Shown here one piece after another: positions 771 to 39,421 of a stretch of DNA of 64,000 bases. The notes beneath the pieces are model-generated. The model was not told the DNA's origin. It did no database searches and saw nothing but the letters and a program-made list of their open reading frames with translations. The stretch covers positions 32,001 through 96,000 of IMG/VR virus record IMGVR_UViG_3300045996_000592; one strand, written 5' to 3'. Each line of letters starts with the position of its first letter. The first letter of the stretch is position 1. The DNA comes from a virus. A program made the translations under genes and the position numbers.

Positions 771-781
771 ACCCCTGTCTT

Positions 782-2764: not shown

Positions 2765-2770
2765 TGCCCC

Positions 2771-3490
2771 ATGAAACCGTTATCAGATCATAAAGATAAA
2801 TCAGGAATATACTGTATTAAGAATATACAGAATGGTAAAGTTTATATAGGTAAGGCCAAATGTATCTTCAGTAGGATTCAGAGTCATATTTATGCTCTTA
2901 CCGGACGAAATAGTAAGAAGTCTAACTCTTATTTAATAAACTCCTGGCATAAGTATGGTCCGGACGCCTTCACATATTCAGTACTTGAAAACGTTGATTT
3001 TACAGATGAGTCCTTAATGCGGGATAGAGAACTTTATTGGATAAATCTAATGAATGCCCTGGACCCAGACAAGGGATATAATCTAAGATCCGACTCATCT
3101 ACAGGAATGGTTACTCATGAAAAAACCTCTAAGAAAATATCAGATCGACTAAAGAAAGAGTGGGAAGCTGGGTTAAGATCTAGTCACTCAGAAAAATTAA
3201 AGAAAAAGTGGGAGGAGGCTCCCCAAAGACGGACTGAACAGGGGAAGATGCTTTCTAAGATTAAAACTAAGTACTTCTATCATATAATAAATCCATCTGA
3301 TAAAGAAGACCTAGGAAGTTCTATGGTGATGGATATGTCTCCCGGAGTTCATGGAGGGTACGATTTACTAAAGAAGTTAGGACTACAGAACTGTATAACA
3401 ACCTTTTTTAATCGTAAGTCTAATTCTATATCCTTTAAGGGGTACGATATTATAAGATTCAACCCAGATACTGCACCTGAATTTGATTAA
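2771..3490 (+). mobile_element. free-standing GIY-YIG homing endonuclease gene
   Basis: GIYCI...KVYIG, conserved R (SRIQSH), E (DRELYW) and GYN; basic C-terminal tail; visibly AT-richer than its neighbours; directly after an intact polA. Confidence 0.9.
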
Positions 3491-15314: not shown

Positions 15315-15547
15315 CAGAACAAGACATAATAGAATTCATAGAGTCCGGTCAGCCGGATATGGCTATCCTCGGGTACTTCCTGATGGACGTAGAAGATAAA
15401 TCCCCAGAAGCAGCCTACAACTACATAAAACCCATTTACGAAAAAGAGTTATCCCTGGCATTTACCAGGGATATTTTTATGGAGTACTTCAACAACCTCG
15501 TTGCCCGGGGCGCCATCTCAGAGGGACCGGATATTTCCGGTAATTAG
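15311..15547 (+). CDS. hypothetical protein; last + strand gene of this block
   Basis: 78 aa; its stop overlaps the stop of the convergent gene. Confidence 0.6.
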   Translation: MTEQDIIEFIESGQPDMAILGYFLMDVEDKSPEAAYNYIKPIYEKELSLAFTRDIFMEYFNNLVARGAISEGPDISGN

Positions 15548-18500
15548 AAGATGTGGAACTTGGTCTCCGTATCCAGGTTCAACCAGTCGTTATAGTTATG
15601 GATAAGGGGTAGCACATCCCGCCACTCCTTACTCATCTTACTCTGGTCTTTATAGGCGCCCTTCTGATAGATAGCGTCTTCTTCTGATTGGAACGGATAC
15701 TCTACTGTAGACATGATAGCTTCCGAGAAGTTCTTCAGGGTATTACTGATAGCTACCGGGTTCTTTACATACTCGTACATCTGTTTAACACCCAATACCG
15801 GATTAAAAGTAATAACTTCGGTACGTAACCTGTCCGTCTGGAATGACAGGAAGTGTACCAGTCTCTTGATACGATATTCATCATCAGGGATACCTTTAGC
15901 TAAATTACTGATCAGGGAATAAATGCCGAGTAAGGATATGATAAGTAGTATCTCCGAAAGATCCTGCATCAGGTTTTTCTTCTGTATGTCACTCATACTA
16001 CCCCACGCAGAAGTAACCCTTGACCAGTAACCGTCAAAATCACGGAGGGCTGAGAAGAACTTCACCGCTGTAACATATCTACCTTCGTACTCTCCCAGTG
16101 TCGCATGATCGTAACCACCGATAAACCGGGCGCGGAGAGCGGGGTAGATGTGTTTATGGAACTGTAATAACAGCTGTCCTACTGTATACTGCTGGAGCAT
16201 TACCCGGTCTTCCCAGGCATAGTTACCGTGGATGTGTTTATTTACCTCTTTGATATAGTTGGTGGCATTGAATTTCTCATCAGAAGACAGCTCAAACCCG
16301 TCTTTCAGTTTCAGCTCTCCGGTGTTCGGATTAAACTCGTAGGCATCATAGATAGACACCGACTCACCGGTCTTTTTATTCTTAATTTGGCGGGACATCA
16401 GTACCGCTAACCCTACCTTGCCTTGTACGTTATATTCACCGATCTCCTGACCAAGGTAAACCTTATCCATGAAGCTGACCCTACCCTGGTCCTCCTGCCA
16501 CTTGGTTATCATGTGGAAGCTGTCTATCAGGGCCTCTGCCTTACTGCCAGGTTTCCTGTTAGCGTAAGGGCCTTCTTTAGAGGAACCCAGTTTTTTAGCA
16601 AACCCGGGTAACAGTTCCGCGTTAAAGACTCCTTCCGCCCGGAAATAACTCTTACGGGAGAAGTACTTGTTAGCAGCCATCTCCAGCAGGTTATTCAACC
16701 TACCCATCGTGTAGTTGTTCAGGTTACCCTTGATGTTCAGGCCCACACCACGAAGAGACGTGATATTCTGTATCCTCTTAGCGATAATCTCCATCTGGGA
16801 GTGGGTCATAGTCTTATCGTTATAGAAGACCATGCTCAGGTAGGCGTTCAGGCGCTTTACCGTGTTCGGTAACTTGGTGTTCTTGTTCTTGGGGTCGTAG
16901 ATATAGGCCGGCTCGTCAGAACCTGCCTTGGTGATCACCTTCCCGGTAGCTGTTTTCTGGTAGTACTTACGGTTGATTACTGCGTCCTTGAGCGCCATGA
17001 TCTCCCCCTCTACTGCGGAAAGGTGAAGGAAGTTCTCGGCCATATCGGAGAACGCCAACATCTGTTTGAAGACATCCGTCTCCAGCTCAGAGTTCAGGGG
17101 TTTGGTGTTCTCCAGTCTTAGCTGCTCATTCAACTTCTTCCTCTCAGCCCTATATTCTTTCTGGCTGATCTTACCCTGTGCCTTCTGTTCGGCCAGCTCT
17201 TGTATTTTCTTCTGAAGGTTTTCCACCTTTTTCTGATTACGGAGATCCCCCATGTAGAGTTTGGGGATGACCTGCCGGGCGTTACCGGCCTCATCCGTAA
17301 CACGGGTAGAGCTAAAAGTCGTCGGGGTAAAGGAGTTGGTTATCCCACGTTTTACTACTGTCCACAGACCCTCGTTACGGGCTTGCTGTGTGAAGTTGGA
17401 CTGAAGGGTCATAAGACTTCCCTTTTTCAACCAGCGCTGCGCCGAAGGACCCATCCGGTTCGTATAACCCCCAATGATATCCATGTAGGCATTATATATC
17501 TCCTTCTGGAGTTTTCCGAGTTCTGAGGTCTGCCCCTGCAGGTCAACGTAACGCTTGTTACGCATGTCCTTACCCTTGGCTGAAAACTCCCTGATCTCGA
17601 TATGATCACGGTTCGGGAACCACCCGGTACGACGGGTAACAATACCAATTGGTTCTTTGGTTGTCCAGTCTTTGGCCATTTCCCAGTACTCCACGTATTC
17701 CTGGTATTTACGACGGAAAGAAGTATGTTCTGCCTCCGTGACATCAGGACGTTTTATCCATCTGCCGTTAATAAATTCTTCTACTTTACCTCTGGCGTCC
17801 TTGTATTCCTGTGTGTACTTATGATACTCGCCATCTTCGTAGGTCTCCCCGTTAGTGGACTCGGCTTCAGTGAATTTACGGACACGTTCCTTGATCTTGT
17901 ATAACTTACGGTTGTACTCAAGGTCTTTTGGATCAGCTGTGTGGATATCTGTTATCTGGATATATTCCATCAGTTTACCGTCATCGGTCCTTAACGCTGA
18001 ATACACCTCATCCCGGAGTTTCCAGTAATCCTGGGATATTTTCTGGAGCAGCCTAGTAGGGTTACCCTTGGCATCCAGCTCATACATGAAGTTAAAAGAG
18101 TCCTTATTCAGTTTACCTGCGAGTTTGGCGTAACGGTTACCTAACTGTTTGATACGTTCCTGTACGCCTTCCCGGGCCTCCTTACTGGTGAACATGGCCT
18201 TCTTGACACGGGTGTCGATAATACCCAGGAGTTTATCACGGGAACCGGCCAGGTCAGACGCCACATACTCGTGGAACTCTATGTCCTGGGCAGCCTCCAT
18301 CAGGTCTTCTATCTCCTTAGGGGTAAGATCAGGGTTTTGGTCTGATATCTTCTTGGTGACATACGTCCACGACTGCCGGGTGATATCATCGTTCAGGTTC
18401 TCCAGTGAGTCCAGCAGGTCTTCCAGCATCTTCTTCTGGTCATCGGTAACAAGGCCCCGGATCTTGGCAATACCCAGGTAGGAATCATTGAACTTGGCCA

Positions 18501-20025
18501 CCTCATCCAATATATGGTAATACTCCGGGCGGTCGTAGTTCTTCGGGTTATTTATAAACGCTGATATAATATTGGTCTCTTCCTGCGCGTAACGAATAAA
18601 CCTGCCATAAGCTGCTAACAGCCCACCCTTTTGTGTACGGAGCTCCGCTATGTCTGAGAGTAGTTCGTGTATCTTACTGATGGTCTCCTTACGTGGTATC
18701 AGGTTAGCCGAGTCTTCTGCCAGTGACTTGAAATAACCCAGACGGTCCTTGAAAATCTTCTCGATGTCATCCAGTGTGACAGAGAGTTTTTCTACCTGTG
18801 ACGCTGGTAACTCCGGCTCATCTGCTGTTACCTGTTCTTCCGAGAAAAACGTGCGGCTCTGGTAGTTATTATCCTTACCCCCGGTTGGTTCTTCAGATAT
18901 CACTTTGTTGATAAATTCTTCGTTAGCGCTGATCTCATGGATAATAACACCTTCTGTACCGAAGTCCTGTACCAGCTGCTCTACTTCTTCCCCCATTTTC
19001 AAGAGGATGTGGTAAGTCTCCGGCTCTTCAACATCAAGGTATCCCTGTAGCTGTATCAGTTTTGTGTAAACACCTACCTGTATACCTTGCTTCTGTACAC
19101 GATTAAGAACGCCACCGATACGGGAACCTTCCTTCACAGGATAAGCTGTGAACGCCTGGTTACTCTTTACCGAGTTCTTGGATGTCTTAAGGTCAATGAC
19201 CTTTATCCTCCCTTCAGGGCTGATCTTCACTATATCCATACTGCCGGCCACCCCTGATTTAGGATCACCAAGGGCTACCTGTGTCAAAAGTACAGAACCA
19301 TCCTTGGTCAGGTCTTCTACCAGCGCGGTAAAAAAGTCGTAGAACTTCTTACGTAAGGGCTCATTAAGAGCGGGGACGTCTGGTATCTCTTCCCCTTTTA
19401 TCACCGCCTGCAGGATACGGTCTATTGCGGTACCTATCTGGCGGGTGTGTTCGTACTGGGGTAATTGCTCCCCCTTACCTTCGATAGCCGTCGTAACCGA
19501 GGTGTATTCATTACCTTCAGAGTCAAAATAGACATGGCTCTCCGGTTCGAGGAATACAGGGTTCTTTGGGTTCAGTACCAGGTCATCTATGATCTGCTGC
19601 TGGACATGATTAGCCTGGCTCTGCTGGTATTTAGTATCTGCCTTCTTCTCTTCAGACAGGATCTCTGATACATTCTTTGGTAGTAGTTCCTTAGAGAGGA
19701 TAATATTCCGGAAGATATTAAACCGGGGTTCCCCGTTCTCATCCAACGTCATTTGTTTACGAAAGTCATTAAAGGAACTGAACTGCTCTTCCCACTCAGG
19801 GGTATAGGCCATAGACCACAGCCCTACAGCTATCTCGGGATCTGTCTTTCCCTTTATCGAACCATCCGACAGACGTTCCTGTAAGTACGGAACCTGTTCT
19901 ATGATGTCATCCAGCTTCTGGTTCTTCAGGAACTCAAGGAAATCACTATAGAGTATAGACGGTTGTTGGTTAGGCGCCAGTACTTTTTCTATCTTATTAT
20001 CTTTACGGTGGAGTTGACAGGTCAC
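15544..20025 (-). CDS. large virion cargo/ejection protein with a PD-(D/E)xK nuclease-like domain
   Basis: 1493 aa; GSMDIV...VIDLKTS...QVGVY nuclease motifs; hydrophobic helix ILLIISLLGIYSLI near the C-terminus; downstream of the vRNAP. Confidence 0.8.
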   Translation of the reverse strand: MTCQLHRKDNKIEKVLAPNQQPSILYSDFLEFLKNQKLDDIIEQVPYLQERLSDGSIKGKTDPEIAVGLWSMAYTPEWEEQFSSFNDFRKQMTLDENGEPRFNIFRNIILSKELLPKNVSEILSEEKKADTKYQQSQANHVQQQIIDDLVLNPKNPVFLEPESHVYFDSEGNEYTSVTTAIEGKGEQLPQYEHTRQIGTAIDRILQAVIKGEEIPDVPALNEPLRKKFYDFFTALVEDLTKDGSVLLTQVALGDPKSGVAGSMDIVKISPEGRIKVIDLKTSKNSVKSNQAFTAYPVKEGSRIGGVLNRVQKQGIQVGVYTKLIQLQGYLDVEEPETYHILLKMGEEVEQLVQDFGTEGVIIHEISANEEFINKVISEEPTGGKDNNYQSRTFFSEEQVTADEPELPASQVEKLSVTLDDIEKIFKDRLGYFKSLAEDSANLIPRKETISKIHELLSDIAELRTQKGGLLAAYGRFIRYAQEETNIISAFINNPKNYDRPEYYHILDEVAKFNDSYLGIAKIRGLVTDDQKKMLEDLLDSLENLNDDITRQSWTYVTKKISDQNPDLTPKEIEDLMEAAQDIEFHEYVASDLAGSRDKLLGIIDTRVKKAMFTSKEAREGVQERIKQLGNRYAKLAGKLNKDSFNFMYELDAKGNPTRLLQKISQDYWKLRDEVYSALRTDDGKLMEYIQITDIHTADPKDLEYNRKLYKIKERVRKFTEAESTNGETYEDGEYHKYTQEYKDARGKVEEFINGRWIKRPDVTEAEHTSFRRKYQEYVEYWEMAKDWTTKEPIGIVTRRTGWFPNRDHIEIREFSAKGKDMRNKRYVDLQGQTSELGKLQKEIYNAYMDIIGGYTNRMGPSAQRWLKKGSLMTLQSNFTQQARNEGLWTVVKRGITNSFTPTTFSSTRVTDEAGNARQVIPKLYMGDLRNQKKVENLQKKIQELAEQKAQGKISQKEYRAERKKLNEQLRLENTKPLNSELETDVFKQMLAFSDMAENFLHLSAVEGEIMALKDAVINRKYYQKTATGKVITKAGSDEPAYIYDPKNKNTKLPNTVKRLNAYLSMVFYNDKTMTHSQMEIIAKRIQNITSLRGVGLNIKGNLNNYTMGRLNNLLEMAANKYFSRKSYFRAEGVFNAELLPGFAKKLGSSKEGPYANRKPGSKAEALIDSFHMITKWQEDQGRVSFMDKVYLGQEIGEYNVQGKVGLAVLMSRQIKNKKTGESVSIYDAYEFNPNTGELKLKDGFELSSDEKFNATNYIKEVNKHIHGNYAWEDRVMLQQYTVGQLLLQFHKHIYPALRARFIGGYDHATLGEYEGRYVTAVKFFSALRDFDGYWSRVTSAWGSMSDIQKKNLMQDLSEILLIISLLGIYSLISNLAKGIPDDEYRIKRLVHFLSFQTDRLRTEVITFNPVLGVKQMYEYVKNPVAISNTLKNFSEAIMSTVEYPFQSEEDAIYQKGAYKDQSKMSKEWRDVLPLIHNYNDWLNLDTETKFHIF

Positions 20026-21176
20026 GCGCAGGTGTTATTTAAAGGGTTATTAGTAGTAAATGTGAAGGTTGGTGAATCTTCTGACTGATAGTAAAGAGTA
20101 CCCGGACGAGCTTCATCAGGTGTGGTCGTACCTTCTTCTGTTAGTGTCTTGATCCTATCAATGACCCTTGCAGCTAACCTATCCGGTTTACTCTTAAAGA
20201 CATCAACCAGAAACTTCATGAGCTTTCCCAGGAACGTCCGGGAAGAAGTAGGTTTCCTGTCTTTAGTGCCGGCGCGTAACTCGTTCTCGGTGAACGTCCC
20301 GAATATGTCCTGCTGGATCATCATTCGGATATACTCATCCACTATAGTCTCAGGGTTGTCGTTATGACTTCTGTAAATACTTTTGATATAACGGATCTCA
20401 TCACGGCTGAGTTCTTTATAGATCTGGTCCATCTCCTCACTGGTAACAAGAGATAAAGCAGCCAGGTGGATAAGCTCTTCACTCAGTATGATCTCAACCC
20501 CCTTGATAAAATCTTCAGCAGACTCAAACCGGTACAAGGACGGCATAAAAATCTGATGGATATTAATAAAGAGGTTCCTCTCGGTTACGTAAACACCCGG
20601 TTTATTATGAGCATTCTCTATTCTAATATAGTTCCTACCAACCATCCCTCTCTGTTCGAGAGCTGCTGCCAGTCTTCCCACGAAGTTATCCCCCTGCTCT
20701 GTAAGCCGGGAAGCAATAAAACATCCGATAGCGAACCGAGACTCAAACTGGTCACGGTCAGGGGAGTTGTAAAGTTCCTCAAGTGTTCTTCCCAGAACTT
20801 CTTCGAGACGGGAACTATCCGGTGAACCGCTAAATCGTTCAGTAATAGCCTGGTTCCTCTCCCGCTCGTCTTCGGGGAGGGCAATTCGTGTATTACCAGA
20901 AGTTCCGGAAAGGAGTAGAAACTTAGAATCTTTTGATAGTTCCGAGAGCACTCCTCCTGCTGTTCTGTTATAAGTTTGTCGAGTTCGTTCATCTACTTCG
21001 AAGTTAATGTTTTTAATCTTACCTGAGTCAGAGAAGTCTGAGGCCAATTTACCTTGGCGATAACGAGAAGGATCAGGTATATCCCCCTTTATCAGGAACT
21101 CCCGGTACGCCTCAGTGAGGCCAATCTTATTTACTAACTCAGACCACCACGGGTTTGACACGTTAGGACACTTCAT
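20022..21176 (-). CDS. virion cargo protein with a degenerate zincin-like motif
   Basis: 384 aa; MKCPN...W.ELV..IG N-terminus; EELIH plus a downstream DEY. Confidence 0.65.
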   Translation of the reverse strand: MKCPNVSNPWWSELVNKIGLTEAYREFLIKGDIPDPSRYRQGKLASDFSDSGKIKNINFEVDERTRQTYNRTAGGVLSELSKDSKFLLLSGTSGNTRIALPEDERERNQAITERFSGSPDSSRLEEVLGRTLEELYNSPDRDQFESRFAIGCFIASRLTEQGDNFVGRLAAALEQRGMVGRNYIRIENAHNKPGVYVTERNLFINIHQIFMPSLYRFESAEDFIKGVEIILSEELIHLAALSLVTSEEMDQIYKELSRDEIRYIKSIYRSHNDNPETIVDEYIRMMIQQDIFGTFTENELRAGTKDRKPTSSRTFLGKLMKFLVDVFKSKPDRLAARVIDRIKTLTEEGTTTPDEARPGTLYYQSEDSPTFTFTTNNPLNNTCA

Positions 21177-21190
21177 TATACGATAGGGGT

Positions 21191-27100: not shown

Positions 27101-30100
27101 CGAGGTACCCTGTACGGTATCGTCGAACAGAGCATTACCGTTGGCCATATTCAGGAACCGGGTATAAGAACCGGAGTCACTTTCCTTCACATAAGGTTTA
27201 CCTACCTGGATAGCTGTAATGATCTCCTGCAGGTCTTCGGTTTTAGCCGGGGTAACTTCGCTGTAGGCCTCGGCTAACTTCTGTTGTGTCACCGTCCTCT
27301 TATCCTCAGGGATCGTAGCAGACACAGAATATCGTATATACTGGACAGACAGTCCTATACCCAGTTCCTGCTTTAACAGGTTGGATATCTCCTGTGCTTC
27401 GTTCGTTAGCTCCAGGTCTGAGACCTCTTTACGGTTCAATAGGGTGATAAGTGCAGATATGGCTTCAGTCTTCTCCAGTAAGAAGTTCTTCCTTTTTTCC
27501 TTTGTCGTAAGGTCGGAGAACGGTATCAGGTACTTGGTCTCAAACGCCTGCGCCCATTGGTCCACCTGCGTCTTACCGCCGTCTTTCCTGTTGGCTGCAA
27601 ATATCCGGGTACGGTTATCTTCCGATGTAGGGTCTATACCCATAAACAGGTACTGGACCCGGTGTTTCTGGAAATCCTTCAACATAGCCTGTACCTGAGA
27701 CGCTACCGTGTCCTGAGTCATTACAGGGGTACCGTCAGCCTCTATAGTCAGGCCGGCGTCAGAGAACAGTTTATTAACGAATTTCCCGGTATCACTGTCT
27801 TCATTCCGTAATATGTTGAGTCTCTGGATAACCTTCTCCTGCGAGGTGATACCGGCCATCTGTTTCAGTAAGCCATTATAAACGCTGTTCACGTTCACTG
27901 ACTGCATGATCGGCTCACCATCATTCTGCCCGGTCTCCTCACTATAGAGCCGGTCGTTACCGAAATCATCCGTATATGGGAACGCGGTAGTGGCTATGTA
28001 CTTACGGGTGACCATAGACAGGGAGCCATAACCGCCTATTGAGTAGGCGTTCTTCTTAAAGTCATCAGCTCCACGGTCACCAAGTTCATCTACTACAGTT
28101 TCATACTCCTCATCCTGCAGGCTCTGGTTATAACCCATGATACGCAGATGTACTTCTACCGCTTCTTTTAACGACTGCCTGTTCTCGGGATCAGTGAATA
28201 CGTTCTGGTAGGATTTTATCTTACCGTAATAATCAGCCAGCTTCCCGAGGTTACCACCAAAGATTGCCTTAGCCTTATCCTTGTACAGGGCCGGGTCGTA
28301 GGTCTTCTTATAAACGTCAAGTAGTTTTTCCAGCTCCTCGTTCGTGTTATACTCGGCCTTCTTACTCACTACCATATGGAAACTACGGGCGAACGCGGCC
28401 GCCAGTTTATCTCCTTCCTCCTGTGTCAGGTAACGCTGAACGGTAACCGTCTGGCCGTCCTCTGTTTTTATCACCTCTTTGTGAGACTTGATAGACTTCA
28501 GTGCCGGTTGGGTGATATGCTCGTGTTCCGGGTTAGTGAACCTGTTAGCGGCCAAGGTAGCGTTCTTATACTTACCACCTTCGATTTCGGAGAACAAACC
28601 TTCGATCTCCCCGCGGGTAAACCGGTCTATAAATTTCTTTATCCACTCCAGCAGACGGGCGAAGAACGACTTGGCGACATGGGAGGTCTCGATAGACTTA
28701 TTCGTCTTCCACTGGTCGAACCTGTCCGCCAGGTATTCCTCCAACGCACGTTCTTCCAGCTCTTTACGGCTCATCCCTTTATACATCGGGTGGAGCCCTT
28801 TGAGTTCTTCTATTCTGCGGTCTAGTCCTTTACCGACTTCCCGGCGGGCTATATCCAGTAACTGGGTTATCTTGTTATCTGGTAACAGCAGGCGGAAGAT
28901 CGCGTGGAACGCCTCGTGGTATTTATAAGGACTGTCTTCTCCTACGAATATCTTACCGCCGGTAACTGCTTTCTTACCGTTCAGGATTTCCAGTGAGCGC
29001 AGGAAATAACCTACAGTCACACTCTTCTCGGCCAGGTTCTTCGTTAGTTCTTTGAGTTCTTCTACGGAAATAAAGTCCGGAAGATTGTCCTTCACCCAGG
29101 AAACGAAACGGTCATAGTTTTCTACAGATAATCCTGTCAGTTCTTCCGGTTGCAGTACTTTTAATACCTCACCCTTGAACCGTGCGGCTACTCTGTCCGC
29201 CTCTTCACGGAACTCGGATACCGCCTGTATGATAGCGTCCTGTTCTTCTATCCCTTTAGCTGTCAGTTCACCTACACGATCATTCATCCACTCTTCCTCA
29301 CGTGCTATAAAACGATCCCAGTCGTTCTCTTCTTCTTCGGCCAGCACCACCCTGGTCCCCTCAGCTACATTTTGGATACGCTCAGGGACTTCCTCAACGA
29401 CCACTGGCTCTTTTTCCTCTTTAATAGGGACATAGTTCTCGACCGTAGGAGTAACTGAGTACACCAGTCCGGCATTCTTAACGATATTTTTACTTACTGA
29501 AGTAGTCAGAAGACTAGCCAGTACATCCGGATCAGTAACGGTAGCCGGGATGTGCTGCAGCATATTATCTGGGGTCAGGGTAAGCTCCAGATTGAATGCA
29601 GGGTTACTCTGCCGTACTTTATCAACAGCCTTCTTTATAGCCTTATTGACCTCTGTGATAAAGTCAATGGAGTCTTTGAACTGTAACCCCGTTTTCCCTG
29701 CGTCCACGTAGATCGCCGGCATCTTCAGGGTTTTATCGGAAGGGTTACTCAGGTGTACCCGCAGGCCACCGTTACTCACCAGCTCCACGTCTATATACCA
29801 TCCCTTGTTCTCAAACGGTACGGACAGGAACAGGGTACTCCCAATTACCTTGTTAACTTCATCCATGAGCGCGGGATCTACTTTCTCCCCATCTTTAAGC
29901 GCTGCCGTTTTCTCAGCCAGTTTAACTGAGTTCTTATTGATCGTGTCCAGCAGGGAATTAACCGCTTCTTCCGGCAACCTATCCGGGTAACACTCCACAT
30001 AAACCACCTTACCCCCGGGGAGCTCAATGGCCATGACATAACGCCCCAGGTTCTTACTCTTGTCATCCAGTTCCGTCAGTTTAGAACGTATAGCCCGGGA

Positions 30101-33100
30101 ATCCTTTAACCCGGCGTCCGTAATAACCGTTTCCGTAGGTATGGGCCCACCATCCTCGTAACGGGTAGTCCTGCTGACAAAATATTTCTTACCGTTGACC
30201 GAGTGATAATTCAGCTCCATCGGGCTCAGGCCTTCCTTCACAAAATCAAATTCTCCGGTAGTAGTAGCAAAACTCATCAGTTCAGACAACTTTTCCCCGG
30301 ATAGGACCAGGGACTTCTTATCCTTCATCTCCGCTGCGATCAGTATGCGGAGCTGGTCAGCCTGGATAGCATTATTTACGAACGCCTTATGAAGTTCTAT
30401 GGGATTACCCCCCTTTATGTCTGTCTTGAATATCCTGATAAAATCCTTTAGGGTGATATCCCGGGCACTGATCGTCTTACCGTCTATTTTAACCGTATAC
30501 AACCCGCCGTAAGTCAGGAACCCGACCGGGGTATCATTACCGTCAAGGTGTATAGCTACATTAAAGGGGTTGGAGTTTGTGAACAGGTAGGGGTTTGACG
30601 TCTTCCTGTTGGAGTACTGGGCGCCGTTATTTGGGGTAATCCTCACAGACAATCTGCTGTTCAGTTGGTCCTTTGGTATGGCTACCAGTATGTCACTCAT
30701 CTGTTGTTTGGCTGCCTCAGTTAACACCCCCCGTTCTTCCTGTGAGAGCCCTGACCATAAAACGGTGTCAGCCATTTCAGGGATATAAGGGTATATCCTG
30801 ACCAGCTCGTGTACACGGGTCAGCTTTAGGTTTTCTTCGGGTTTTTCTACAGGTTCCTCTACGGTCAGTTTTTCTATAGAAGACACCTGCAGTTTATCCT
30901 TACTGTTCGACGGGTTGACCAGAGTGAGGTAACTATCCTTTACACCGGATACACGCCACCTGCCTTCGGGGTTGGAAACTGTTTTCTTACCGGTGAGCAC
31001 TTCTCCTACGTGTAACGTCTTACCGTCAAACTCCACTGTATCGCTCTTTATCTTACCCGAGGAATAATCATTTTTGAAGGTGTCCACGGTATAACGCGAA
31101 CCGTCTGCGAACCGAAACTCATTACCGATAACACGGTCTACTGTAACAGTCCGTACTTCCCCTTCGTCATTCTTATAAGTAAACGACTTACCCACATACC
31201 AGTTAATATCCTCCGGGGCTTCTGCAGGAGTAAGCTCTTCTTCAGGCGACGCCTCGTCAGTGATGATCTCTGTGGCGAGTTCTTCCTTGACCTCTTCTAC
31301 ACCGGCCTCTTTCATCATCTCCTCTATCCTGGCCTGCAGAAGATTACGGGCCGCCTCTTCCAGCGCCTCTGCTACTTTATTATGAACCTTAATAAACTCC
31401 ACCGGGTTTACCAGTGTGTTATACGCCTGTATGTGCTTACCTGCCTGTTTGTCCAGCTTGATGTAATCCAGCAGTTGGCCCATGGTGTCCTCTACGTCCG
31501 ACTCCGATACGATAGACTTATTGTTATTCTGGGCGTTAACCGAGTTGATATAACCCCTGTAGGAGTTCAGCAGCTTACCCCGGAAGTCGGAGCGGGCCGA
31601 TGTCTCGTCCAGGTCGGTTAGTGGGTTCTCGTGTACTTCCCTGATACGTTCCAGGTTAGCCAGTTGTTCCTTCATCTGATTACGTAATTCAGCAGACTCG
31701 GCTATCCCCTCAAGTGTCTTTATCTCTTTGGTCAGGAGTTTGATCTCTTTTTCCAGCGTATCCAGACTACCAATAATGTCGAACGCCTTGTTTACGGATG
31801 CCCCGATACCCGGCACACGGGCTGCTTCCGACTTCAGCTGGGCGGCCCTTTTAACGGCCTGCTTCATCTTGTAGTCAGAGGTAGCCAGTATCTCGATGGC
31901 CTCATCCAGCGCTCTCTTGGCTACCAGGGCCTTAAAACGATCTGATTCAGGGTCGAGTATTTTCTCACCCTTGTCGTTCGTCAAGTCTTTACCGTCAGCA
32001 TCCTTCATATAAGATGCGGCGTACTGTTCAGGTTTTACCCTGCCAGCGAACCTATCCTTCAGGTCTTCCCATACGGTATAAAAATCTTTTATCTGTGACG
32101 CGAACCCGGTCATGTACTCACGCACCTTCCCCTTACCGGCCTCTGTAAAGTCGATTCCGAACGCCTGCTTGAACTCCTCCTCGGTAAGATGTTCTCCGTA
32201 AGACTCTATTGTATCGAGTACACTGTCGAACATATTCATCTTGATGGCGGTACTGAATAGTTTAGCCGCACCGGTCTCCTTGATGTTGTTGTAGTTGAAC
32301 CTGTCCTGTGACTGCAGGGCCGCTTCCATCCCCTTAGCCGCTTCATCCTGTACTTTCAGGTTAGCGATCGCTGGGTTCAGTATGTTCTTAGGATCTTTAT
32401 AGAAGGCGTTCAGCAGCTCTATGTTCTCCTGTACGTCCTTATCAGCCGCCGTTTTAGCGTCACGGTATCCCTGGTTAAACCGGGAACGGGTAGCGTCATA
32501 TCCCTTCATCAATCCTGTCTGAATAGGGCTCACGAGCTTACCTGTTACCGCGCCCATCAGGAAGGTCTTGAAGCCTTCTTTGGATGCCTGTGCCCCCAGT
32601 CCTTTATCTACCGACTCTTCCCAGCTACCTTTACGGCCATCATACAGATCCGTATAGTAATCGGTAATTGCGGTCTGTGAGGAGTTCTGCAACAGTTCCT
32701 GTACGCCTTCCGCTACTTCCATCTTACCGGCGTGAAGACCGACAGACTTAGCTGCCTCCCAGTAGGCCTTACCGGCACCAAAGTCGTTCTTTATCTGGCG
32801 GAACGCTCCGAGTTTACCGAACCAGTCGGATTTCCTGTAGGCCTGGGTAGCTTCTTTACCTGCTATCTTACCTGAGACCTCAAATGCCTTTTCCTCGGCA
32901 TCTGTAGCCAGTTTCGACAGGGCCTTTTTTGAAGAAGAGAACTTATCCATCAGGTTACCGAACTCTATCCGGTTCATCACCGCCAGGATACCTGTATTCA
33001 CGATGAAGTTATCTGTGGCGCCGTCCTTGGCCAACCGCTCTATGCGGTTAAGGTCTTCCCCAATAGGGTCTGTACCGTGAGTGCTGACGTACTTCTCGTA

Positions 33101-34093
33101 GAGATTATTGTATAATGTTCCGTAGGTCTGTGCTGCCTCCATCCGGGCCTCGGTAGCTGCCGCGTTGAACTCGGATAACCCCCGCTTGATACCACCTGTA
33201 CCGATCCACGCCAGCTGTGCGAAGTTATGTCCTTCTTCTGCTGCCCTGGCTATATCAGCACCGGTTTCCGCCAGTGGTACGAACTTCTTGGTAGCATTCC
33301 ATAAGGTATTCACGAACCGGTCTGACTTCCAGACACTATTCAACCTCTGCATATCACGGGTTATCTCCGAAACTGTAGCCGCACCTTCACCGATTTTTGT
33401 CAACCTTGCGGCGGACAACCCGAGTTTGACGGGACTAAGCGCCCCGGCAATACCGGCGGTCATTAAGCTCTCCATCAGGAACTGGGCGCCGGCGCCGAAC
33501 GCAAACCCGGACTGCTGCACAAGGCTACCAAAGAACTCCCTGTTGAATATACCATCATGTCCTTCCTTGGTCTCGAAGATGGCATACTTATTCATGATTT
33601 CTTCTTGATCCTTTTGGAGGTCATAGAGTTCCTCTGCAGAACCTGTCAGTTTAGAAGCGTCCCAGCTGAACAGGGCGTTGGCCATATGGCCCCATCCTTT
33701 CCAGCCTTCCCAGAAGGTCTGTGAGCCAAGTTTCCACCCACCGCCAAGCGCGTTACCCATGACGTCACCCCAGGTCTGGGCCTGGCCATAACGCTCTTCA
33801 CTATTAACACCTGGGTCCATACCATAAGTCTTATAGTAGTCGCTACCCATATACCGCTCAGCCCTGATCTTATCCTTGTCATAGAACTCTGACTGACTGG
33901 CAGCCTCAGCTGTAGGGGTACGTAAAAAATTCCTGAACTCACCGTATACGTCAGTGTTACCACCCCGATTAACAGGGAGCAACGGGGTGTCATGTACCTC
34001 CGGTAACATCAGGTCAGATAATGCCGGAGCTTTAGATGTAGACAGAAATTCTGCGGGCTCGTTCTGGTTTATGAGTTCTTGAGAAAAATCCAT
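21191..34093 (-). CDS. giant virion-packaged RNA polymerase polyprotein (crAss-like vRNAP)
   Basis: 4300 aa; RIPSQDKHS and GADFDIDKL (24437-24451) as in phi14:2 gp66-type RNAPs; zincin HEAFH (28904-28918)...EEYLAD; hydrophobic N-terminal segments. Confidence 0.92.
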   Translation of the reverse strand: MDFSQELINQNEPAEFLSTSKAPALSDLMLPEVHDTPLLPVNRGGNTDVYGEFRNFLRTPTAEAASQSEFYDKDKIRAERYMGSDYYKTYGMDPGVNSEERYGQAQTWGDVMGNALGGGWKLGSQTFWEGWKGWGHMANALFSWDASKLTGSAEELYDLQKDQEEIMNKYAIFETKEGHDGIFNREFFGSLVQQSGFAFGAGAQFLMESLMTAGIAGALSPVKLGLSAARLTKIGEGAATVSEITRDMQRLNSVWKSDRFVNTLWNATKKFVPLAETGADIARAAEEGHNFAQLAWIGTGGIKRGLSEFNAAATEARMEAAQTYGTLYNNLYEKYVSTHGTDPIGEDLNRIERLAKDGATDNFIVNTGILAVMNRIEFGNLMDKFSSSKKALSKLATDAEEKAFEVSGKIAGKEATQAYRKSDWFGKLGAFRQIKNDFGAGKAYWEAAKSVGLHAGKMEVAEGVQELLQNSSQTAITDYYTDLYDGRKGSWEESVDKGLGAQASKEGFKTFLMGAVTGKLVSPIQTGLMKGYDATRSRFNQGYRDAKTAADKDVQENIELLNAFYKDPKNILNPAIANLKVQDEAAKGMEAALQSQDRFNYNNIKETGAAKLFSTAIKMNMFDSVLDTIESYGEHLTEEEFKQAFGIDFTEAGKGKVREYMTGFASQIKDFYTVWEDLKDRFAGRVKPEQYAASYMKDADGKDLTNDKGEKILDPESDRFKALVAKRALDEAIEILATSDYKMKQAVKRAAQLKSEAARVPGIGASVNKAFDIIGSLDTLEKEIKLLTKEIKTLEGIAESAELRNQMKEQLANLERIREVHENPLTDLDETSARSDFRGKLLNSYRGYINSVNAQNNNKSIVSESDVEDTMGQLLDYIKLDKQAGKHIQAYNTLVNPVEFIKVHNKVAEALEEAARNLLQARIEEMMKEAGVEEVKEELATEIITDEASPEEELTPAEAPEDINWYVGKSFTYKNDEGEVRTVTVDRVIGNEFRFADGSRYTVDTFKNDYSSGKIKSDTVEFDGKTLHVGEVLTGKKTVSNPEGRWRVSGVKDSYLTLVNPSNSKDKLQVSSIEKLTVEEPVEKPEENLKLTRVHELVRIYPYIPEMADTVLWSGLSQEERGVLTEAAKQQMSDILVAIPKDQLNSRLSVRITPNNGAQYSNRKTSNPYLFTNSNPFNVAIHLDGNDTPVGFLTYGGLYTVKIDGKTISARDITLKDFIRIFKTDIKGGNPIELHKAFVNNAIQADQLRILIAAEMKDKKSLVLSGEKLSELMSFATTTGEFDFVKEGLSPMELNYHSVNGKKYFVSRTTRYEDGGPIPTETVITDAGLKDSRAIRSKLTELDDKSKNLGRYVMAIELPGGKVVYVECYPDRLPEEAVNSLLDTINKNSVKLAEKTAALKDGEKVDPALMDEVNKVIGSTLFLSVPFENKGWYIDVELVSNGGLRVHLSNPSDKTLKMPAIYVDAGKTGLQFKDSIDFITEVNKAIKKAVDKVRQSNPAFNLELTLTPDNMLQHIPATVTDPDVLASLLTTSVSKNIVKNAGLVYSVTPTVENYVPIKEEKEPVVVEEVPERIQNVAEGTRVVLAEEEENDWDRFIAREEEWMNDRVGELTAKGIEEQDAIIQAVSEFREEADRVAARFKGEVLKVLQPEELTGLSVENYDRFVSWVKDNLPDFISVEELKELTKNLAEKSVTVGYFLRSLEILNGKKAVTGGKIFVGEDSPYKYHEAFHAIFRLLLPDNKITQLLDIARREVGKGLDRRIEELKGLHPMYKGMSRKELEERALEEYLADRFDQWKTNKSIETSHVAKSFFARLLEWIKKFIDRFTRGEIEGLFSEIEGGKYKNATLAANRFTNPEHEHITQPALKSIKSHKEVIKTEDGQTVTVQRYLTQEEGDKLAAAFARSFHMVVSKKAEYNTNEELEKLLDVYKKTYDPALYKDKAKAIFGGNLGKLADYYGKIKSYQNVFTDPENRQSLKEAVEVHLRIMGYNQSLQDEEYETVVDELGDRGADDFKKNAYSIGGYGSLSMVTRKYIATTAFPYTDDFGNDRLYSEETGQNDGEPIMQSVNVNSVYNGLLKQMAGITSQEKVIQRLNILRNEDSDTGKFVNKLFSDAGLTIEADGTPVMTQDTVASQVQAMLKDFQKHRVQYLFMGIDPTSEDNRTRIFAANRKDGGKTQVDQWAQAFETKYLIPFSDLTTKEKRKNFLLEKTEAISALITLLNRKEVSDLELTNEAQEISNLLKQELGIGLSVQYIRYSVSATIPEDKRTVTQQKLAEAYSEVTPAKTEDLQEIITAIQVGKPYVKESDSGSYTRFLNMANGNALFDDTVQGTSWKNAEGELVWDFQNASYHLDRITDFNESSEIDKLKEDPFLKNNILLDNLHKVQATGGFNVVRADGLKVEKIDDDGGVNKLLEVNQIDGVSYGSFGPREFLIYTMNLYQGLESDKKIKIADETFWTARHLIRVLEASSTGDLVKLPVIRTVSKVNGKLKITEDTLNLLYNEVVREFDRIRRVKEQNETAVYPEGYIEGYHYETKDGQKVPGRGERFYQMRAALGELAAEIESSAADPEYKLDKNTVLKQLRTYFRSQVDGFLQELQDGKIITKNEDGSYQNNLLGGFIEKGFGNEDKDYGLNMIEGDIEHNVAQIFLNDYLNTLAMNQLLLGDESRSLKDAVDAVKRAKGANGSGPSIESIFTAPSLGIHHKNVSIQVAHIKSQKFKATYGKEDGKIADGQMYGSIKAARYTAFALGKLTPTLAKVLDKMEAGTPLNPQDREIFGKSGLIAEGRMLNSQKLVYYDGVDYDKMSVFFLSKQYTSFKDKEGRWHSRPGMEELHDLREAMDKAEAENPEQISFVGDLTTAKAIKRNAADSAAHLKNGDVSRYFMSRPARYMRLQLENPSNKVKITDPTQAKHVIMSEQADDTLVNFMGVETDGDGNPWTVGRIREMYLSDTSNRVSNNFYQARNDIFDIDQAMTELGTSIRSGSVTPKLAAFQERAVETLKASGADNQLIELFEVKDGQPLYNLNNPITLKKYTQLFLAYFSKGVMSEKVPGTSVALVSNYGTRVVRQALTSERDSSGRPLRSRIVRRSEQEKYLSKNPEYYKSAKKYNNPYDRVFEEPIEEGDFFIDDLRHNVTEYDERGNITGYYTEFMMPPMYEDLLKLLPEEKIPEFLTKMFGVRIPSQDKHSFVNLKLVDFIPEYYGSSAVFPHELIEISGADFDIDKLYIHWPEVFYKKGGKLQPFGSAVTPQEKFDEYKVWLKKNNRRYSDIINILKKTDPHYKEAQENLRSLLDKKSELRTQLEDLKWITNDDGKYDSLFKWSARDLKQAQVELSEEVTEANELVHDLNVMLEAQALREMGLPDSSEEYREATLNKELNNGVLNNRILQQKIALLGNSHMVTGNKPIAFQTAGIDSFKDILKEFQEIFKGTPAEKYFTEATSDVNSLLGKYYAFKNNKEGATNIGPAVNAMLTYSLLSTYGVEIRDSYINDQGAEVPFFKFRMGDRVIGAGYTNYHSYNPETGMFDGERINKQISDLVSVMTDNAKERLAALLGLNISATGYVANMIAQGVPLKTALLLIRQPIVQEYFAKTLLNKSAVTRSDEKKVKAEAVFTELRSRFSEVPEEDIPNITDDLLIENLKSPSELSEYAALKTFEGVVKQTIYYNKVAQVLKLTKGLGTSFEDVDKIKDNITELGLMMTNEEFSKAPVPFDLRQVLTGRDPELPHHLFMSAYIQILGQLEELEKSMFLEKTDVFNRIKGIVKANLSEPDRFNKERFESTLRDNLVSYLGIKAYQQMLKDKGRISALNSLDNRLIYDTADTGYNHIADIVNMVRSGLTGKKSNYLVNNFLHLIPTSETTVTGEIVPSRINRDGITKLDTNTWAKLSEYQVNKLQDSFTDLYQTREKFTDKNGNKFSGREVATALFHYLLVKDGGMYRSGSFIKFIPTFMFRDLLSATGLANDLMKTRRSDEDYENVFGIGQAELFNEFMTYYMTNSGSSFDIMFRKNGTPKFTATGIKVVDEYTAAESFKVEGEGGTGNTITIDLFGGIRKKYSPSKFSSEENHMLVRNKQMIEARGFGFYRTEARVVEDNPEFQMIERGKTEVLFPYVFKMKAGGGPFSRHEYYILESLEGKENEGLSDPHSFIQLGEVMARGVRAVYKRFEPEGSNKQWRLGRMFGELPTTSQLLIKRGVDNNIGELDSPSFLGDSKMYELEAAEYSSQQNPVSELKNNYDVVSTYTFGIGWFYMRDGKNIQVDPAHSDLMGKPMLPSEVLEYFNKKGNLGNQPAVPSDKEVQDGLRACGLTK

Positions 34094-38893: not shown

Positions 38894-39421
38894 TTAGTAT
38901 TTTATAAAACCGATCAACTTAGGGTCAGACATTTTCCTTACACGACGACACACTTCATACCCATCGCGAGAGGATTCATCGTTCGTATTACCTTCTATTG
39001 TATATATATTATCTCCCTCCATTCGCTCTACGACACCGATATGTCCCGTAGTAGAAGAGTATTTCATTACGAACTCGGAGCCCGGTGTAATGGCCACCTG
39101 GTTTTTCATTACCTGCTCCTTGGTCACCTTCTTGGTTTTATCGGTCCGGTTCCAGCGGTCAAGTACACCACCGGTCTTAACTACCGGGTTAGTTACCCCG
39201 AGTTGTTTGGAAGCCTGTAAATAACACCAATACGTAAAGGCTGCACACCAGGCGTAACCCCCCTTACTACCGAGGCCGACAGCTTCCTGATACTTTATAG
39301 AGTCTCCTTTATTAGTGTGCGCCTTATCCTCGGTCACTCCAAGTTGGGTGATAGCTATTTCGAGAGCTGTTTGGGATAATGTTTTCTTGCCGGCATTACT
39401 GAGTATTGCTGCTGGGTTCAT
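38894..39421 (-). CDS. CHAP-domain peptidoglycan hydrolase
   Basis: AWCAAF (Cys), GHIGVV (His), TIEGNT. Confidence 0.88.
   Translation of the reverse strand: MNPAAILSNAGKKTLSQTALEIAITQLGVTEDKAHTNKGDSIKYQEAVGLGSKGGYAWCAAFTYWCYLQASKQLGVTNPVVKTGGVLDRWNRTDKTKKVTKEQVMKNQVAITPGSEFVMKYSSTTGHIGVVERMEGDNIYTIEGNTNDESSRDGYEVCRRVRKMSDPKLIGFIKY

What the first reader, a model, noticed from the sequence alone, without database searches (positions are those of the whole stretch)
15544..34093. Head-to-tail terminal cysteines may chain the ejected proteins together
Seen (counted by eye): the 4300-aa vRNAP has about 2 Cys, one at its C-end (RACGLTK). The next protein (384 aa, 3 Cys) starts MKC and ends TCA. 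The 1493-aa protein starts MTC and has no other Cys. No Cys was seen in the 975- and 586-aa cargo proteins. So 4 of about 6 Cys in some 6200 residues sit within 5 residues of adjoining termini, in gene order. Established: ejected proteins such as the N4 vRNAP are Cys-free. Inference: C-to-N disulfides (or metal clasps) rebuild a redox-cleavable ~6200-aa chain for co-packaging and ordered ejection, released in the reducing cytoplasm. I know of no description of this.
Basis: partly seen in the sequence, partly recalled or inferred. Interest (0 to 1): 0.82.

Follow-up and report, generated by a model that had tools for sequence, protein, structure and literature searches.

The report
Cysteine-tipped ends chain crAss cargo proteins
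Three giant proteins that this crAss-like phage probably packs and injects, its RNA polymerase among them, are almost free of cysteine except for one at each end that faces the next protein, and relatives keep this rule at every gene break, which suggests untested end-to-end disulfide links.

Summary
The 4300-, 384- and 1493-aa proteins hold 6 Cys in 6177 residues, and 4 of them lie within 5 residues of the two facing junctions. The 975- and 586-aa proteins have none.

The pattern is conserved:
- 44 of 44 homologs of the 1493-aa protein have a Cys at position 3-5, and in 43 it is the only Cys.
- 113 of 119 homologs of the 4300-aa protein have a Cys within 5 residues of the C-end, and all 119 within 59. 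In 87 it is the only Cys in about 4500 residues.
- 32 of 32 junctions in 32 IMG/VR loci carry the pair.
- phi14:2, crAss001, p-crAssphage, cr4_1 and a Leptolyngbya phage follow the same rule at other split points. In crAss001 one partner gene lies on the opposite strand.

The best reading is head-to-tail disulfides that tie the split RNA-polymerase block into one linear chain. No chemistry was tested.

A structural precedent is in print: cyanopodophage A4, Cys1715 of gp27 bonded to Cys5 of gp26 (PMC12002296). My literature searches found no description for crAss-like phages. This scan has noted the same pattern before on other DNA, in at least 144 genomes.

The parts
21191..34093 (-). p4300, a 4300-aa giant protein with the crAss-type virion RNA polymerase catalytic motif. 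It is the first piece of the chain: no N-terminal Cys, and a C-terminal Cys at 4296.
   Evidence: ORF and Cys positions. tblastn hits to annotated Crassvirales 'RNAP catalytic subunit' genes. DFDID motif.
24437..24451 (-). DFDID (residues 3215-3219 of p4300), the catalytic motif of crAss-like vRNAPs.
   Evidence: the same motif context occurs in phi14:2 g066 (position 1361), crAss001 gp50 (1483), p-crAssphage gp44 (1433) and cr4_1 gp26 (3433). Coordinates checked.
21206..21208 (-). Codon TGC for Cys4296 of p4300, 4 residues before the C-end. It is the upstream half of junction A.
   Evidence: It is one of only 3 invariant columns in the last 400 residues of 18 upstream proteins. 113 of 119 homologs have a Cys within 5 residues of the C-end.
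21168..21170 (-). Codon TGT for Cys3 of p384, the downstream half of junction A. A 14-nt spacer separates the two genes.
   Evidence: In alignment A2, all 19 sequences that have a residue in this column have Cys.
20022..21176 (-). p384, a 384-aa middle piece with a Cys at each end (3 and 383) and one internal Cys (152).
   Evidence: Fold: mean pLDDT 78.7, with the tail 355-384 under 50. Among 68 phmmer relatives, 23 have exactly two Cys, one at each end.
20028..20030 (-). Codon TGC for Cys383 of p384, the penultimate residue. It is the upstream half of junction B.
   Evidence: The tail resembles the C-terminal tails of the type-B upstream proteins, whose Cys aligns with it in 4 of 4 tails included.
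20017..20019 (-). Codon TGT for Cys3 of p1493, the downstream half of junction B. The genes overlap by 4 nt.
   Evidence: It is invariant in 16 aligned homologs. 44 of 44 homologs have a Cys at position 3-5.
15544..20025 (-). p1493, the last piece of the chain. Its sole Cys is at position 3. It has a PD-(D/E)XK-like nuclease region, and its C-terminal half is related to the crAss 'RNAP subunit'.
29990..29992 (-). Cys1368 of p4300, an internal Cys found only in this lineage. It is not part of the pattern.
   Evidence: in 86 BLAST alignments to homologs, the aligned residue is L (81), I (3), V (1) or F (1).
20721..20723 (-). Cys152 of p384, an internal Cys shared only with the closest relative. 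It is not part of the pattern.
   Evidence: the column holds C in 2 sequences. The others have Y, L, M, A, T, H, I, F or D.
34093..37020 (-). p975, a Cys-free protein upstream of the chain and a likely cargo protein.
   Evidence: It has no PHROG or Pfam match. The cargo role is inferred from its position.
37130..38890 (-). p586, a Cys-free protein upstream of the chain and a likely cargo protein.
   Evidence: It has no PHROG match. The cargo role is inferred from its position.

Best explanation
The three genes encode pieces of the crAss-type virion RNA-polymerase block, which other lineages encode as one, two or three polypeptides split at different places. Selection has removed cysteine from the whole block. 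The exception is one Cys at each terminus that faces the next piece.

I propose that in the virion the C-terminal Cys of p4300 bonds to Cys3 of p384, and Cys383 of p384 bonds to Cys3 of p1493. These disulfides would restore one linear chain of about 6200 residues.

The links sit at the extreme ends, on tails that the models predict only with low confidence, which would fit flexibility. The chain therefore stays unbranched and could still pass a narrow tail channel when the proteins are partly unfolded, a state in which non-covalent contacts between subunits would be lost. Removing every other Cys prevents wrong cross-links.

Shown here: the positions, their conservation, and their link to gene breaks.
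Inferred: the bond itself, when it forms (probably after assembly or release), that it serves threading or fixed stoichiometry, and that it is reduced in the host cytoplasm.
For: 1. Window: 4 of 6 Cys lie at the two junctions.

2. Downstream side: 44 of 44 homologs of p1493 (25-38% identity) have a Cys at position 3-5. In 43 of 44 it is the only Cys in 1255-2291 residues.

3. Upstream side: 119 homologs of p4300 hold 544,664 residues and 179 Cys in all. 113 of 119 have a Cys within 5 residues of the C-end, and 119 of 119 within 59. In 87 of 119 it is the only Cys. None of the 119 has a Cys in the first 10 residues.

4. In 32 IMG/VR loci where both genes are visible, 32 of 32 junctions carry the pair. 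The gaps between genes run from -1 to 45 nt, and both TGT and TGC are used. Four further junctions in 3 metagenome loci also carry it, among them a three-piece chain in L045.

5. There are three different split positions. Each lineage has Cys only at the breaks it actually has. Lineages fused at A or B have no Cys there, since they have no internal Cys at all.

6. Reference phages:
- phi14:2: g067 has its sole Cys as the last residue, g066 has Cys 3 and 2179 only, and g065 has a sole Cys at 3.
- crAss001: gp47 has a sole Cys at 2339 of 2341. gp50 has Cys 5, 1334 and 2404 of 2412. gp49 has a sole Cys at 5. gp47 is encoded on the opposite strand.
- p-crAssphage gp45/gp44, cr4_1 gp26/gp27 and Leptolyngbya phage Lbo-JY46 also follow the rule.

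7. Middle pieces: 23 of 68 relatives of p384 have exactly two Cys, one at each end.

8. The motifs around the Cys differ between junction types, and only the Cys is shared. This argues for thiol chemistry and against a sequence-specific enzyme.

9. Precedent: cryo-EM of phage A4 shows a disulfide between Cys1715 of gp27 and Cys5 of gp26 (PMC12002296, passages). In the A-4L record these are the sole Cys of a 1717-aa and an 1114-aa protein.

10. crAss001 virions do contain disulfides, in tail and portal-vertex proteins. Their RNAP-associated cargo must partly unfold to pass constrictions under 50 A (PMC10172136, passages).
Against: - No bond has been observed in any crAss-like phage. All the evidence here is comparative.
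- The sequences are related to each other, so the counts are not independent events. The number of independent split events is small: three positions, recurring in several lineages.
- Virions assemble in a reducing cytoplasm, and gut crassviruses live in an anoxic habitat, so it is unclear when oxidation would happen. I found no thioredoxin or glutaredoxin gene in this genome. The Erv search was uninformative because its control did not ring.
- Cys depletion is not absolute. p-crAssphage gp44 has 7 internal Cys and cr4_1 gp26 has 6. The window has 2.
- Six of 119 upstream homologs carry the Cys 12-58 residues from the end.
- One ORF break, in L014 (966 aa | 501 aa), has no Cys pair. It lies inside a conserved domain and may be an error or a pseudogene.
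- Unpaired terminal Cys exist: p-crAssphage gp47 (C-end) and a 674-aa Lbo-JY46 protein (N-end).
- I could not map the junction peptides onto fused forms residue by residue.
Confidence: 0.6

Rival explanations
1. The facing terminal thiols share a metal ion (a zinc or iron clasp) and do not form a disulfide. This would tie the pieces together reversibly.
For: Paired Cys from two chains can form clasps. The pattern of pairs at junctions fits any thiol-based link. A metal link would form in the reducing cytoplasm.
Against: Each junction offers only two Cys. No conserved His or further Cys lies next to them in any junction type. The one solved case of this pattern (A4) is a disulfide.
Confidence: 0.1
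2. The terminal Cys do not pair with each other. Each one links its protein to another virion part (portal, capsid interior, tail plug) or to a second copy of itself.
For: Unpaired terminal Cys exist in neighbouring cargo proteins: p-crAssphage gp47 and the Lbo-JY46 674-aa protein. crAss001 has many structural disulfides.
Against: The numbers match a chain. First pieces have only a C-terminal Cys (0 of 119 have an N-terminal one). Last pieces have only an N-terminal Cys (1 of 44 also has Cys at its C-end). Middle pieces have both. The Cys appear on both sides of a break and vanish together in fused forms.
Confidence: 0.1
3. The Cys serve another thiol reaction at the termini, such as enzyme-made ligation, acylation or a processing signal, and not a simple tether.
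For: A preprint on phi14:2 proposes that fused polyproteins are cleaved and notes a zincin-like protease domain in the block (10.1101/2020.03.07.982082, passages). p384 has weak zincin-like fold matches.
Against: No intein, sortase or ligase family was found in these proteins by Pfam. The flanking motifs differ between junction types, which does not fit a sequence-specific enzyme.
Confidence: 0.05
4. The pattern is chance, a gene-calling artefact, or a nucleotide-level signal for translational coupling at gene junctions.
For: The junction genes are tightly spaced, with gaps of -4 to 45 nt. Most of the Cys codons are TGT.
Against: The random-placement probability is about 1.6e-9 for the window alone. 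The Cys is invariant while its neighbours, its exact position (3-6), the spacer length and the codon (TGT or TGC) all vary. In crAss001 the gp47 partner is on the other strand and about 11 kb away from the start of gp50.
Confidence: 0.01

Closest known systems
Cyanopodophage A4 (Anabaena phage A-4L) pre-ejectosome proteins gp27 and gp26 (PNAS 2025, PMC12002296)
   Same: Two consecutive ejection proteins are each nearly Cys-free. The upstream one has its sole Cys 2 residues before the C-end (1715 of 1717) and the downstream one has its sole Cys at position 5. Cryo-EM shows these two joined by a disulfide in the virion (passages).
   Different: It belongs to another family (Saffermanviridae, 42-kb genome) and has no RNA polymerase in the pair. 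There is no sequence similarity to the window proteins (best BLAST E 0.019 over 38 residues). The paper reports one bond as a structural detail. The word 'cysteine' does not occur in its main text, and it states no general rule.
Virion RNA-polymerase block of Crassvirales: phi14:2 gp67-gp66-gp65 and crAss001 gp47-gp50-gp49
   Same: The window proteins are distant homologs. They share the DFDID motif and show local similarity to the RNAP catalytic subunit and to the 'RNAP subunit'. The reference proteins show the same terminal-Cys rule.
   Different: The split points differ. The window fuses the first two reference pieces and has an extra 384-aa middle piece. In the texts I could search, these proteins are described as virion cargo with no mention of cysteine or of links between them. 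Those texts are PMC10172136 (0 occurrences of 'cysteine') and the phi14:2 preprint (0 occurrences of 'cysteine' or 'disulfide'). The journal version of the phi14:2 paper was not held.
Cys-free ejection proteins of Schitoviridae (N4 gp50, DEV gp71-gp73)
   Same: These are giant virion RNA polymerases and ejection proteins with cysteine suppressed: 0.00075% in gp71 homologs against 0.865% in the proteomes (PMC11445570, passages).
   Different: In those phages the polymerase is one polypeptide and no terminal Cys is reported. The explanation offered there is avoidance of periplasmic disulfide formation. Here the depletion comes with conserved terminal exceptions.
Split inteins (protein trans-splicing)
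   Same: Both would restore covalent continuity between the products of a split gene.
   Different: No intein domain is found by Pfam. The link proposed here is a reversible S-S bond and not a peptide bond.
Structural disulfides of the crAss001 tail and portal vertex
   Same: They show that disulfides exist in purified crassvirus particles (PMC10172136, passages).
   Different: Those bonds join folded structural proteins. None was reported for the cargo, which was not resolved.

Membership tests
Crassvirales-type virion RNA-polymerase block | DFDxD catalytic motif in a giant virion protein | tested here: met
   p4300 has DFDID at 3215-3219, in the same local context as phi14:2 g066, crAss001 gp50, p-crAssphage gp44 and cr4_1 gp26.
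Crassvirales-type virion RNA-polymerase block | Sequence similarity to annotated crAss RNAP catalytic subunit and RNAP-associated subunit | tested here: met
   tblastn: 79 phage records match p4300 residues 1402-4300 and 46 match p1493. All matches are partial, below 60% identity (most listed rows 22-38%), and most are Crassvirales records. No Pfam family matched p4300, and no solved chain matched by sequence.
Crassvirales-type virion RNA-polymerase block | Proteins present in the virion and ejected into the host | not testable with these tools
   Inferred from homology to proteins detected in phi14:2 and crAss001 virions by mass spectrometry. Sources are the record annotations and PMC10172136 passages.
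Head-to-tail disulfide-linked ejection proteins (A4 gp27-gp26 type) | Cys at the C-end of the upstream protein and at position 3-6 of the downstream protein, in otherwise Cys-poor proteins | tested here: met
   for the window. for relatives. for A-4L.
Head-to-tail disulfide-linked ejection proteins (A4 gp27-gp26 type) | An S-S bond between these residues observed in the particle | not testable with these tools
   This needs non-reducing gels, cross-link mass spectrometry or a structure.
Head-to-tail disulfide-linked ejection proteins (A4 gp27-gp26 type) | Homology to A4 gp27 and gp26 | tested here: not met
   BLASTP of A-4L gp25-gp29 against the five window proteins gave a best E of 0.019 over 38 residues. 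The window is therefore not filed as a member. The resemblance is in how the system may work.
Schitoviridae (N4-like) vRNAP ejection operon | Cysteine suppression in ejected proteins | tested here: met
   0.078% Cys in the five proteins against 1.56% in the rest of the genome.
Schitoviridae (N4-like) vRNAP ejection operon | Single-subunit T7-like polymerase domain | tested here: inconclusive
   No Pfam family matched p4300. The motif found is the two-barrel DFDxD type. No direct comparison with N4 gp50 was run.
Split inteins | Hint or intein domain halves at the split ends | tested here: not met
   No Pfam match of that kind in p4300, p384 or p1493 or in 24 relatives of p384. The Cys-bearing tails are only 2-5 residues beyond the Cys.

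The most novel reading that the evidence does not exclude
Cysteine-tipped termini are a general connector for crAss-like phages. Any protein that starts and ends with a lone Cys, such as the 384-aa middle piece here, can be plugged into the injected chain without gene fusion. The whole polymerase block would then travel through the tail as one disulfide-linked thread. Reduction in the host cytoplasm would release, and perhaps switch on, the RNA polymerase pieces, giving a redox-timed start of infection.
Probability: 0.3. Interest if true: 0.85.

Novelty: new variant of a known kind. Interest (0 to 1): 0.72.

Why it matters
Crassviruses are the most abundant phages of the human gut. How they deliver about 0.7 MDa of RNA-polymerase proteins through a narrow tail is an open question, stated as such in PMC10172136 and PMC13434306.

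A simple sequence rule makes a concrete mechanism testable with existing cultured phages (phi14:2, crAss001). The rule is that there is no cysteine except one at each end facing the next piece. The tests are ordinary ones: non-reducing gels, cross-link mass spectrometry and Cys-to-Ser mutants.

The rule would also:
- explain why ejected phage proteins avoid cysteine;
- give annotators a cheap marker for the members and order of the injected chain;
- show that split genes can be re-joined at the protein level without inteins.

Tried and rejected
- **Complex prediction** of p384 with residues 1-330 of p1493. The verdict was no answer (score 0.31, mark 0.32). It is not evidence either way.
- **Mapping junction peptides onto fused forms.** I built HMMs from the first or last 120 residues of 27, 17, 29 and 25 proteins. 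There were no hits, so no residue-level picture of what replaces the Cys could be made.
- **BLAST of p384 against the ORFs of 36 loci**: no hit. The word-based search for p384 found only itself. tblastn in the phage collection and the pattern scan of IMG/VR found nothing. The phmmer search then found 70 proteins, the query itself among them.
- **Direct single-protein scan of IMG/VR with p1493**: nothing. The alignment query worked.
- **Context for standalone middle pieces.** Two IMG/VR scans and one metagenome scan found nothing. The second metagenome scan gave 3 loci.
- **Fold of p384.** Foldseek against PDB gave no match at E 0.001 or better. VIA wide gave a best Z of 5.9, with several zincin-like rows below the level that can be trusted.
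- **Fold of the last 400 residues of p4300**: low confidence, mean pLDDT 53.5.
- **Sequence searches against solved structures** with the p1493 profile and with p4300: nothing meaningful.
- **Thiol oxidoreductases in the phage genome.** No thioredoxin or glutaredoxin was found. The Erv/ALR search is uninformative because its control rang nowhere.
- **Relic of split C at Cys1368 of p4300**: rejected. Split C maps near residues 1850-1900, and residue 1368 aligns to Leu in relatives.
- **Literature searches** for a crAss description gave none. Two hits for 'cysteine' were growth-medium mentions. Supplementary files were not opened and may hold relevant tables, for example the disulfide list of PMC10172136.

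Full report
**What is in the window.** Seven ORFs run on the minus strand from 40769 to 15544. The five at issue were translated.
- p586 (37130-38890) and p975 (34093-37020) have no cysteine.
- p4300 (21191-34093) has Cys 1368 and 4296, the latter four residues before the end.
- p384 (20022-21176) has Cys 3, 152 and 383, the last being penultimate.
- p1493 (15544-20025) has Cys 3 only. Its GTG start overlaps the p384 stop by 4 nt.

The junction DNA was read and the codons were checked.

If the 6 Cys were placed at random among the 6177 residues, the chance that 4 or more fall in the 20 junction positions is about 1.6e-9. A crude ORF set for the rest of the 134,155-bp genome has 1.56% Cys, against 0.078% in these five proteins. 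Only one other of 92 adjacent same-strand ORF pairs has a Cys on both facing ends, and its downstream ORF has 15 Cys in 132 aa.

**What the proteins are.** p4300 carries DFDID at 3215-3219, in the same context as the catalytic motif of phi14:2 g066, crAss001 gp50, p-crAssphage gp44 and cr4_1 gp26. tblastn of its residues 1402-4300 finds 79 phage records, nearly all Crassvirales, over genes annotated as RNAP catalytic subunit. The matches are short and below 60% identity. The C-terminal third of p1493 matches genes annotated as 'RNA-polymerase subunit' in 46 records. Its residues 126-333 match a PD-(D/E)XK exonuclease PHROG and, just below the Pfam cut-off, PF12705. p384, p975 and p586 match no family.

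The three genes are therefore a distant version of the virion RNA-polymerase block of crAss-like phages. In phi14:2 and crAss001 that block consists of three virion proteins (record annotation; PMC10172136 passages).

**Conservation on the downstream side.** The word-based search with p1493 gave 44 other proteins at 25-38% identity.
- All 44 have a Cys at position 3-5. In 43 it is the only Cys, within 1255-2291 residues.
- Sixteen begin like p1493. In their alignment C3, Q4, L5 and R7 are invariant, while residue 2 varies.
- Most of the longer ones (1863-2291 aa) begin like p384. They are forms in which a p384-like N-terminal part and p1493 are one protein.

**Conservation on the upstream side.** The search with residues 3100-4300 of p4300 found 175 proteins, of which 120 were listed. 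That is 119 besides the window's own, at 2383-6058 aa.
- They hold 544,664 residues and 179 Cys in all.
- 113 of 119 have a Cys within 5 residues of the C-end, and all 119 within 59.
- In 87 it is the only Cys.
- None has a Cys in its first 10 residues.
- The six exceptions carry the Cys 12, 25, 25, 52, 57 and 58 residues from the end.
- In an alignment of the last 400 residues of 18 upstream proteins (16-29% identity), only three columns are invariant. One of them is this Cys.

**Junctions seen on DNA.** An alignment query found 36 IMG/VR loci. In 4 of them the upstream gene is off the contig.
- In the other 32, every junction has the pair (32 of 32).
- The upstream ORF has one Cys in its 420-3316 visible residues (two in L018). 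That Cys lies 1-3 residues from the end, or 13 in L004.
- The downstream protein has its first Cys at position 3-6, and in 30 of 32 it is the only one.
- Gaps between the genes run from -1 to 45 nt. Both TGT and TGC occur.
- One further ORF break, inside the p1493 homolog of L014 (966 | 501 aa), has no Cys. It cuts a conserved domain and looks like a nonsense change or an assembly error. I report it as the single exception.
- Three metagenome loci add four junctions, all with pairs. One is a three-piece chain in L045.

**The rule follows the gene breaks.** Local BLAST places the breaks of the various phages at three positions of the block.
- **C**: between an N-terminal protein and the catalytic part, near residues 1850-1900 of p4300.
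- **A**: the p4300|p384 break.
- **B**: the p384|p1493 break.

The window is fused at C and split at A and B. One group of relatives is split only at B and another only at A. Each has Cys only at the break it has, and none elsewhere.

I could not align the junction peptides to the fused forms. So the statement rests on the absence of any internal Cys, and not on a residue-by-residue comparison.

**Cultured and reference phages**.

| Phage | Upstream protein | Downstream protein(s) |
|---|---|---|
| phi14:2 | g067, 1797 aa, sole Cys is the last residue | g066 (the crystallised polymerase), 2180 aa, Cys 3 and 2179 only; g065, 1421 aa, sole Cys 3 |
| crAss001 | gp47, sole Cys 2339 of 2341 | gp50, Cys 5, 1334 and 2404 of 2412; gp49, sole Cys 5 |
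| p-crAssphage | gp45, penultimate Cys | gp44, Cys 3, with 7 more internal Cys |
| cr4_1 (recoded stops) | gp26, Cys 4 residues from the end | gp27, sole Cys 3 |
| Leptolyngbya phage Lbo-JY46 | 1552-aa protein, sole Cys is the last residue | 2748-aa protein, sole Cys 4 |

In crAss001, gp47 lies on the strand opposite to gp50 and gp49. This rules out a signal tied to adjacent genes.

**Middle pieces.** A full phmmer search with p384 gave 70 proteins, including p384 itself and one protein seen earlier. Among the other 68:
- 23 have exactly two Cys, one within the first 12 and one within the last 10 residues, at lengths of 201-2707 aa;
- 1 has both terminal Cys plus an internal one;
- 13 have only a C-terminal Cys, and 2 more have that plus internal Cys;
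- 9 have only an N-terminal Cys, and 10 more have that plus internal Cys;
- 8 have no Cys;
- 2 have only internal Cys.

First, middle and last pieces thus have the Cys that a head-to-tail chain requires.

**The two internal Cys of the window are lineage-specific.** Residue 1368 of p4300 aligns to Leu, Ile, Val or Phe in 86 alignments. Residue 152 of p384 is shared with one relative only.

**Structure predictions.** p384 folds with mean pLDDT 78.7, and its last 30 residues are below 50. The last 140 residues of p4300 are below 50 in a weak model. These results fit flexible Cys-bearing tails but do not prove them.

**Mechanism.** Only the Cys is common to the different junction types, and the surrounding motifs differ. 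No second ligand is conserved beside them. The simplest chemistry is one disulfide per junction.

That exact arrangement has been seen. [quoted passage not shown] In the A-4L record these are the only Cys of the two proteins. They share no detectable sequence similarity with the window, so this is a functional parallel and not membership of the same family.

crAss001 particles contain other disulfides, and their polymerase-associated cargo has to unfold partly to pass constrictions under 50 A (PMC10172136). A link at the extreme ends keeps the chain linear. It would also survive unfolding, when non-covalent contacts are lost. Removing all other Cys avoids branches and loops.

This reasoning is inference, as are the time of oxidation and the release by reduction. 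Rivals are a metal clasp, links to other partners, or another thiol reaction. They are weighed in the rival section.

**Novelty.** Eight literature searches found no description of terminal cysteines or of inter-protein links in the crAss polymerase block. I also read passages of PMC10172136, PMC11445570, PMC13434306 and the phi14:2 preprint. The journal version of the phi14:2 paper was not held, and supplements were closed.

The A4 bond is in print as a single structural detail. This scan has recorded the same pattern before on other DNA: 161 notes in at least 144 genomes. Those notes gave me the A4 lead, which I checked myself.

**Verdict.** The reading as a head-to-tail chain is well supported by comparison. 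The disulfide and its purpose remain to be shown.

Noticed in passing
window 20022-21176 (-), p384 residues about 60-350: The predicted fold gives weak matches (best Z 5.9) that include several zincin-type metallopeptidases. The protein has EELIH at 233-237 where such enzymes have HExxH, so it may be a degenerate zincin-like domain. The same domain occurs in many proteins of 200-5400 aa.
   Followed up: partly
window 15544-20025 (-), p1493 residues 126-333: This is a PD-(D/E)XK nuclease-like region (PHROG 298 exonuclease, E 2.5e-13; Pfam PF12705 just under its cut-off). In crAss001 the similar segment lies in gp47, not in gp49, so domains have moved between pieces of the block.
   Followed up: partly
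L014 12895-12919: The p1493 homolog is broken into 966 and 501 aa inside a conserved domain, with no Cys at the break. It is the only break without a pair, and is probably a nonsense change or an assembly error.
   Followed up: partly
L038 (p-crAssphage gp47, 857 aa) and L040 (Lbo-JY46 674-aa protein): These are lone terminal Cys without a facing partner in the neighbouring gene. gp47 has its sole Cys at 856 of 857. The 674-aa protein has its sole Cys at position 5. They may link to another virion part or to a second copy of themselves.
   Followed up: no
L041 (cr4_1, NC_055893.1) gp23-gp27: Read with table 11, the annotated genes hold many in-frame stops (38 in gp26, 18 in gp27). This fits the stop-codon recoding known in some crassviruses.
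   Followed up: no
proteins P0174, P0188, P0199, P0207, P0211, P0212, P0225: Seven of the eight Cys-free relatives of the p384 domain (1607-5386 aa) end in a basic Arg-rich tail. They look like a separate group of giant proteins without the terminal-Cys rule.
   Followed up: no
window 38894-39421 (-), 175 aa: A lysozyme or endolysin-like protein (PHROG 9589, E 1.4e-15) lies directly upstream of the Cys-free cargo genes. It may be a virion-borne cell-wall hydrolase.
   Followed up: no
whole genome G000 (134,155 bp): No thioredoxin or glutaredoxin gene was detected, unlike p-crAssphage, whose record annotates two thioredoxin-like genes (gp37, gp39).
   Followed up: partly
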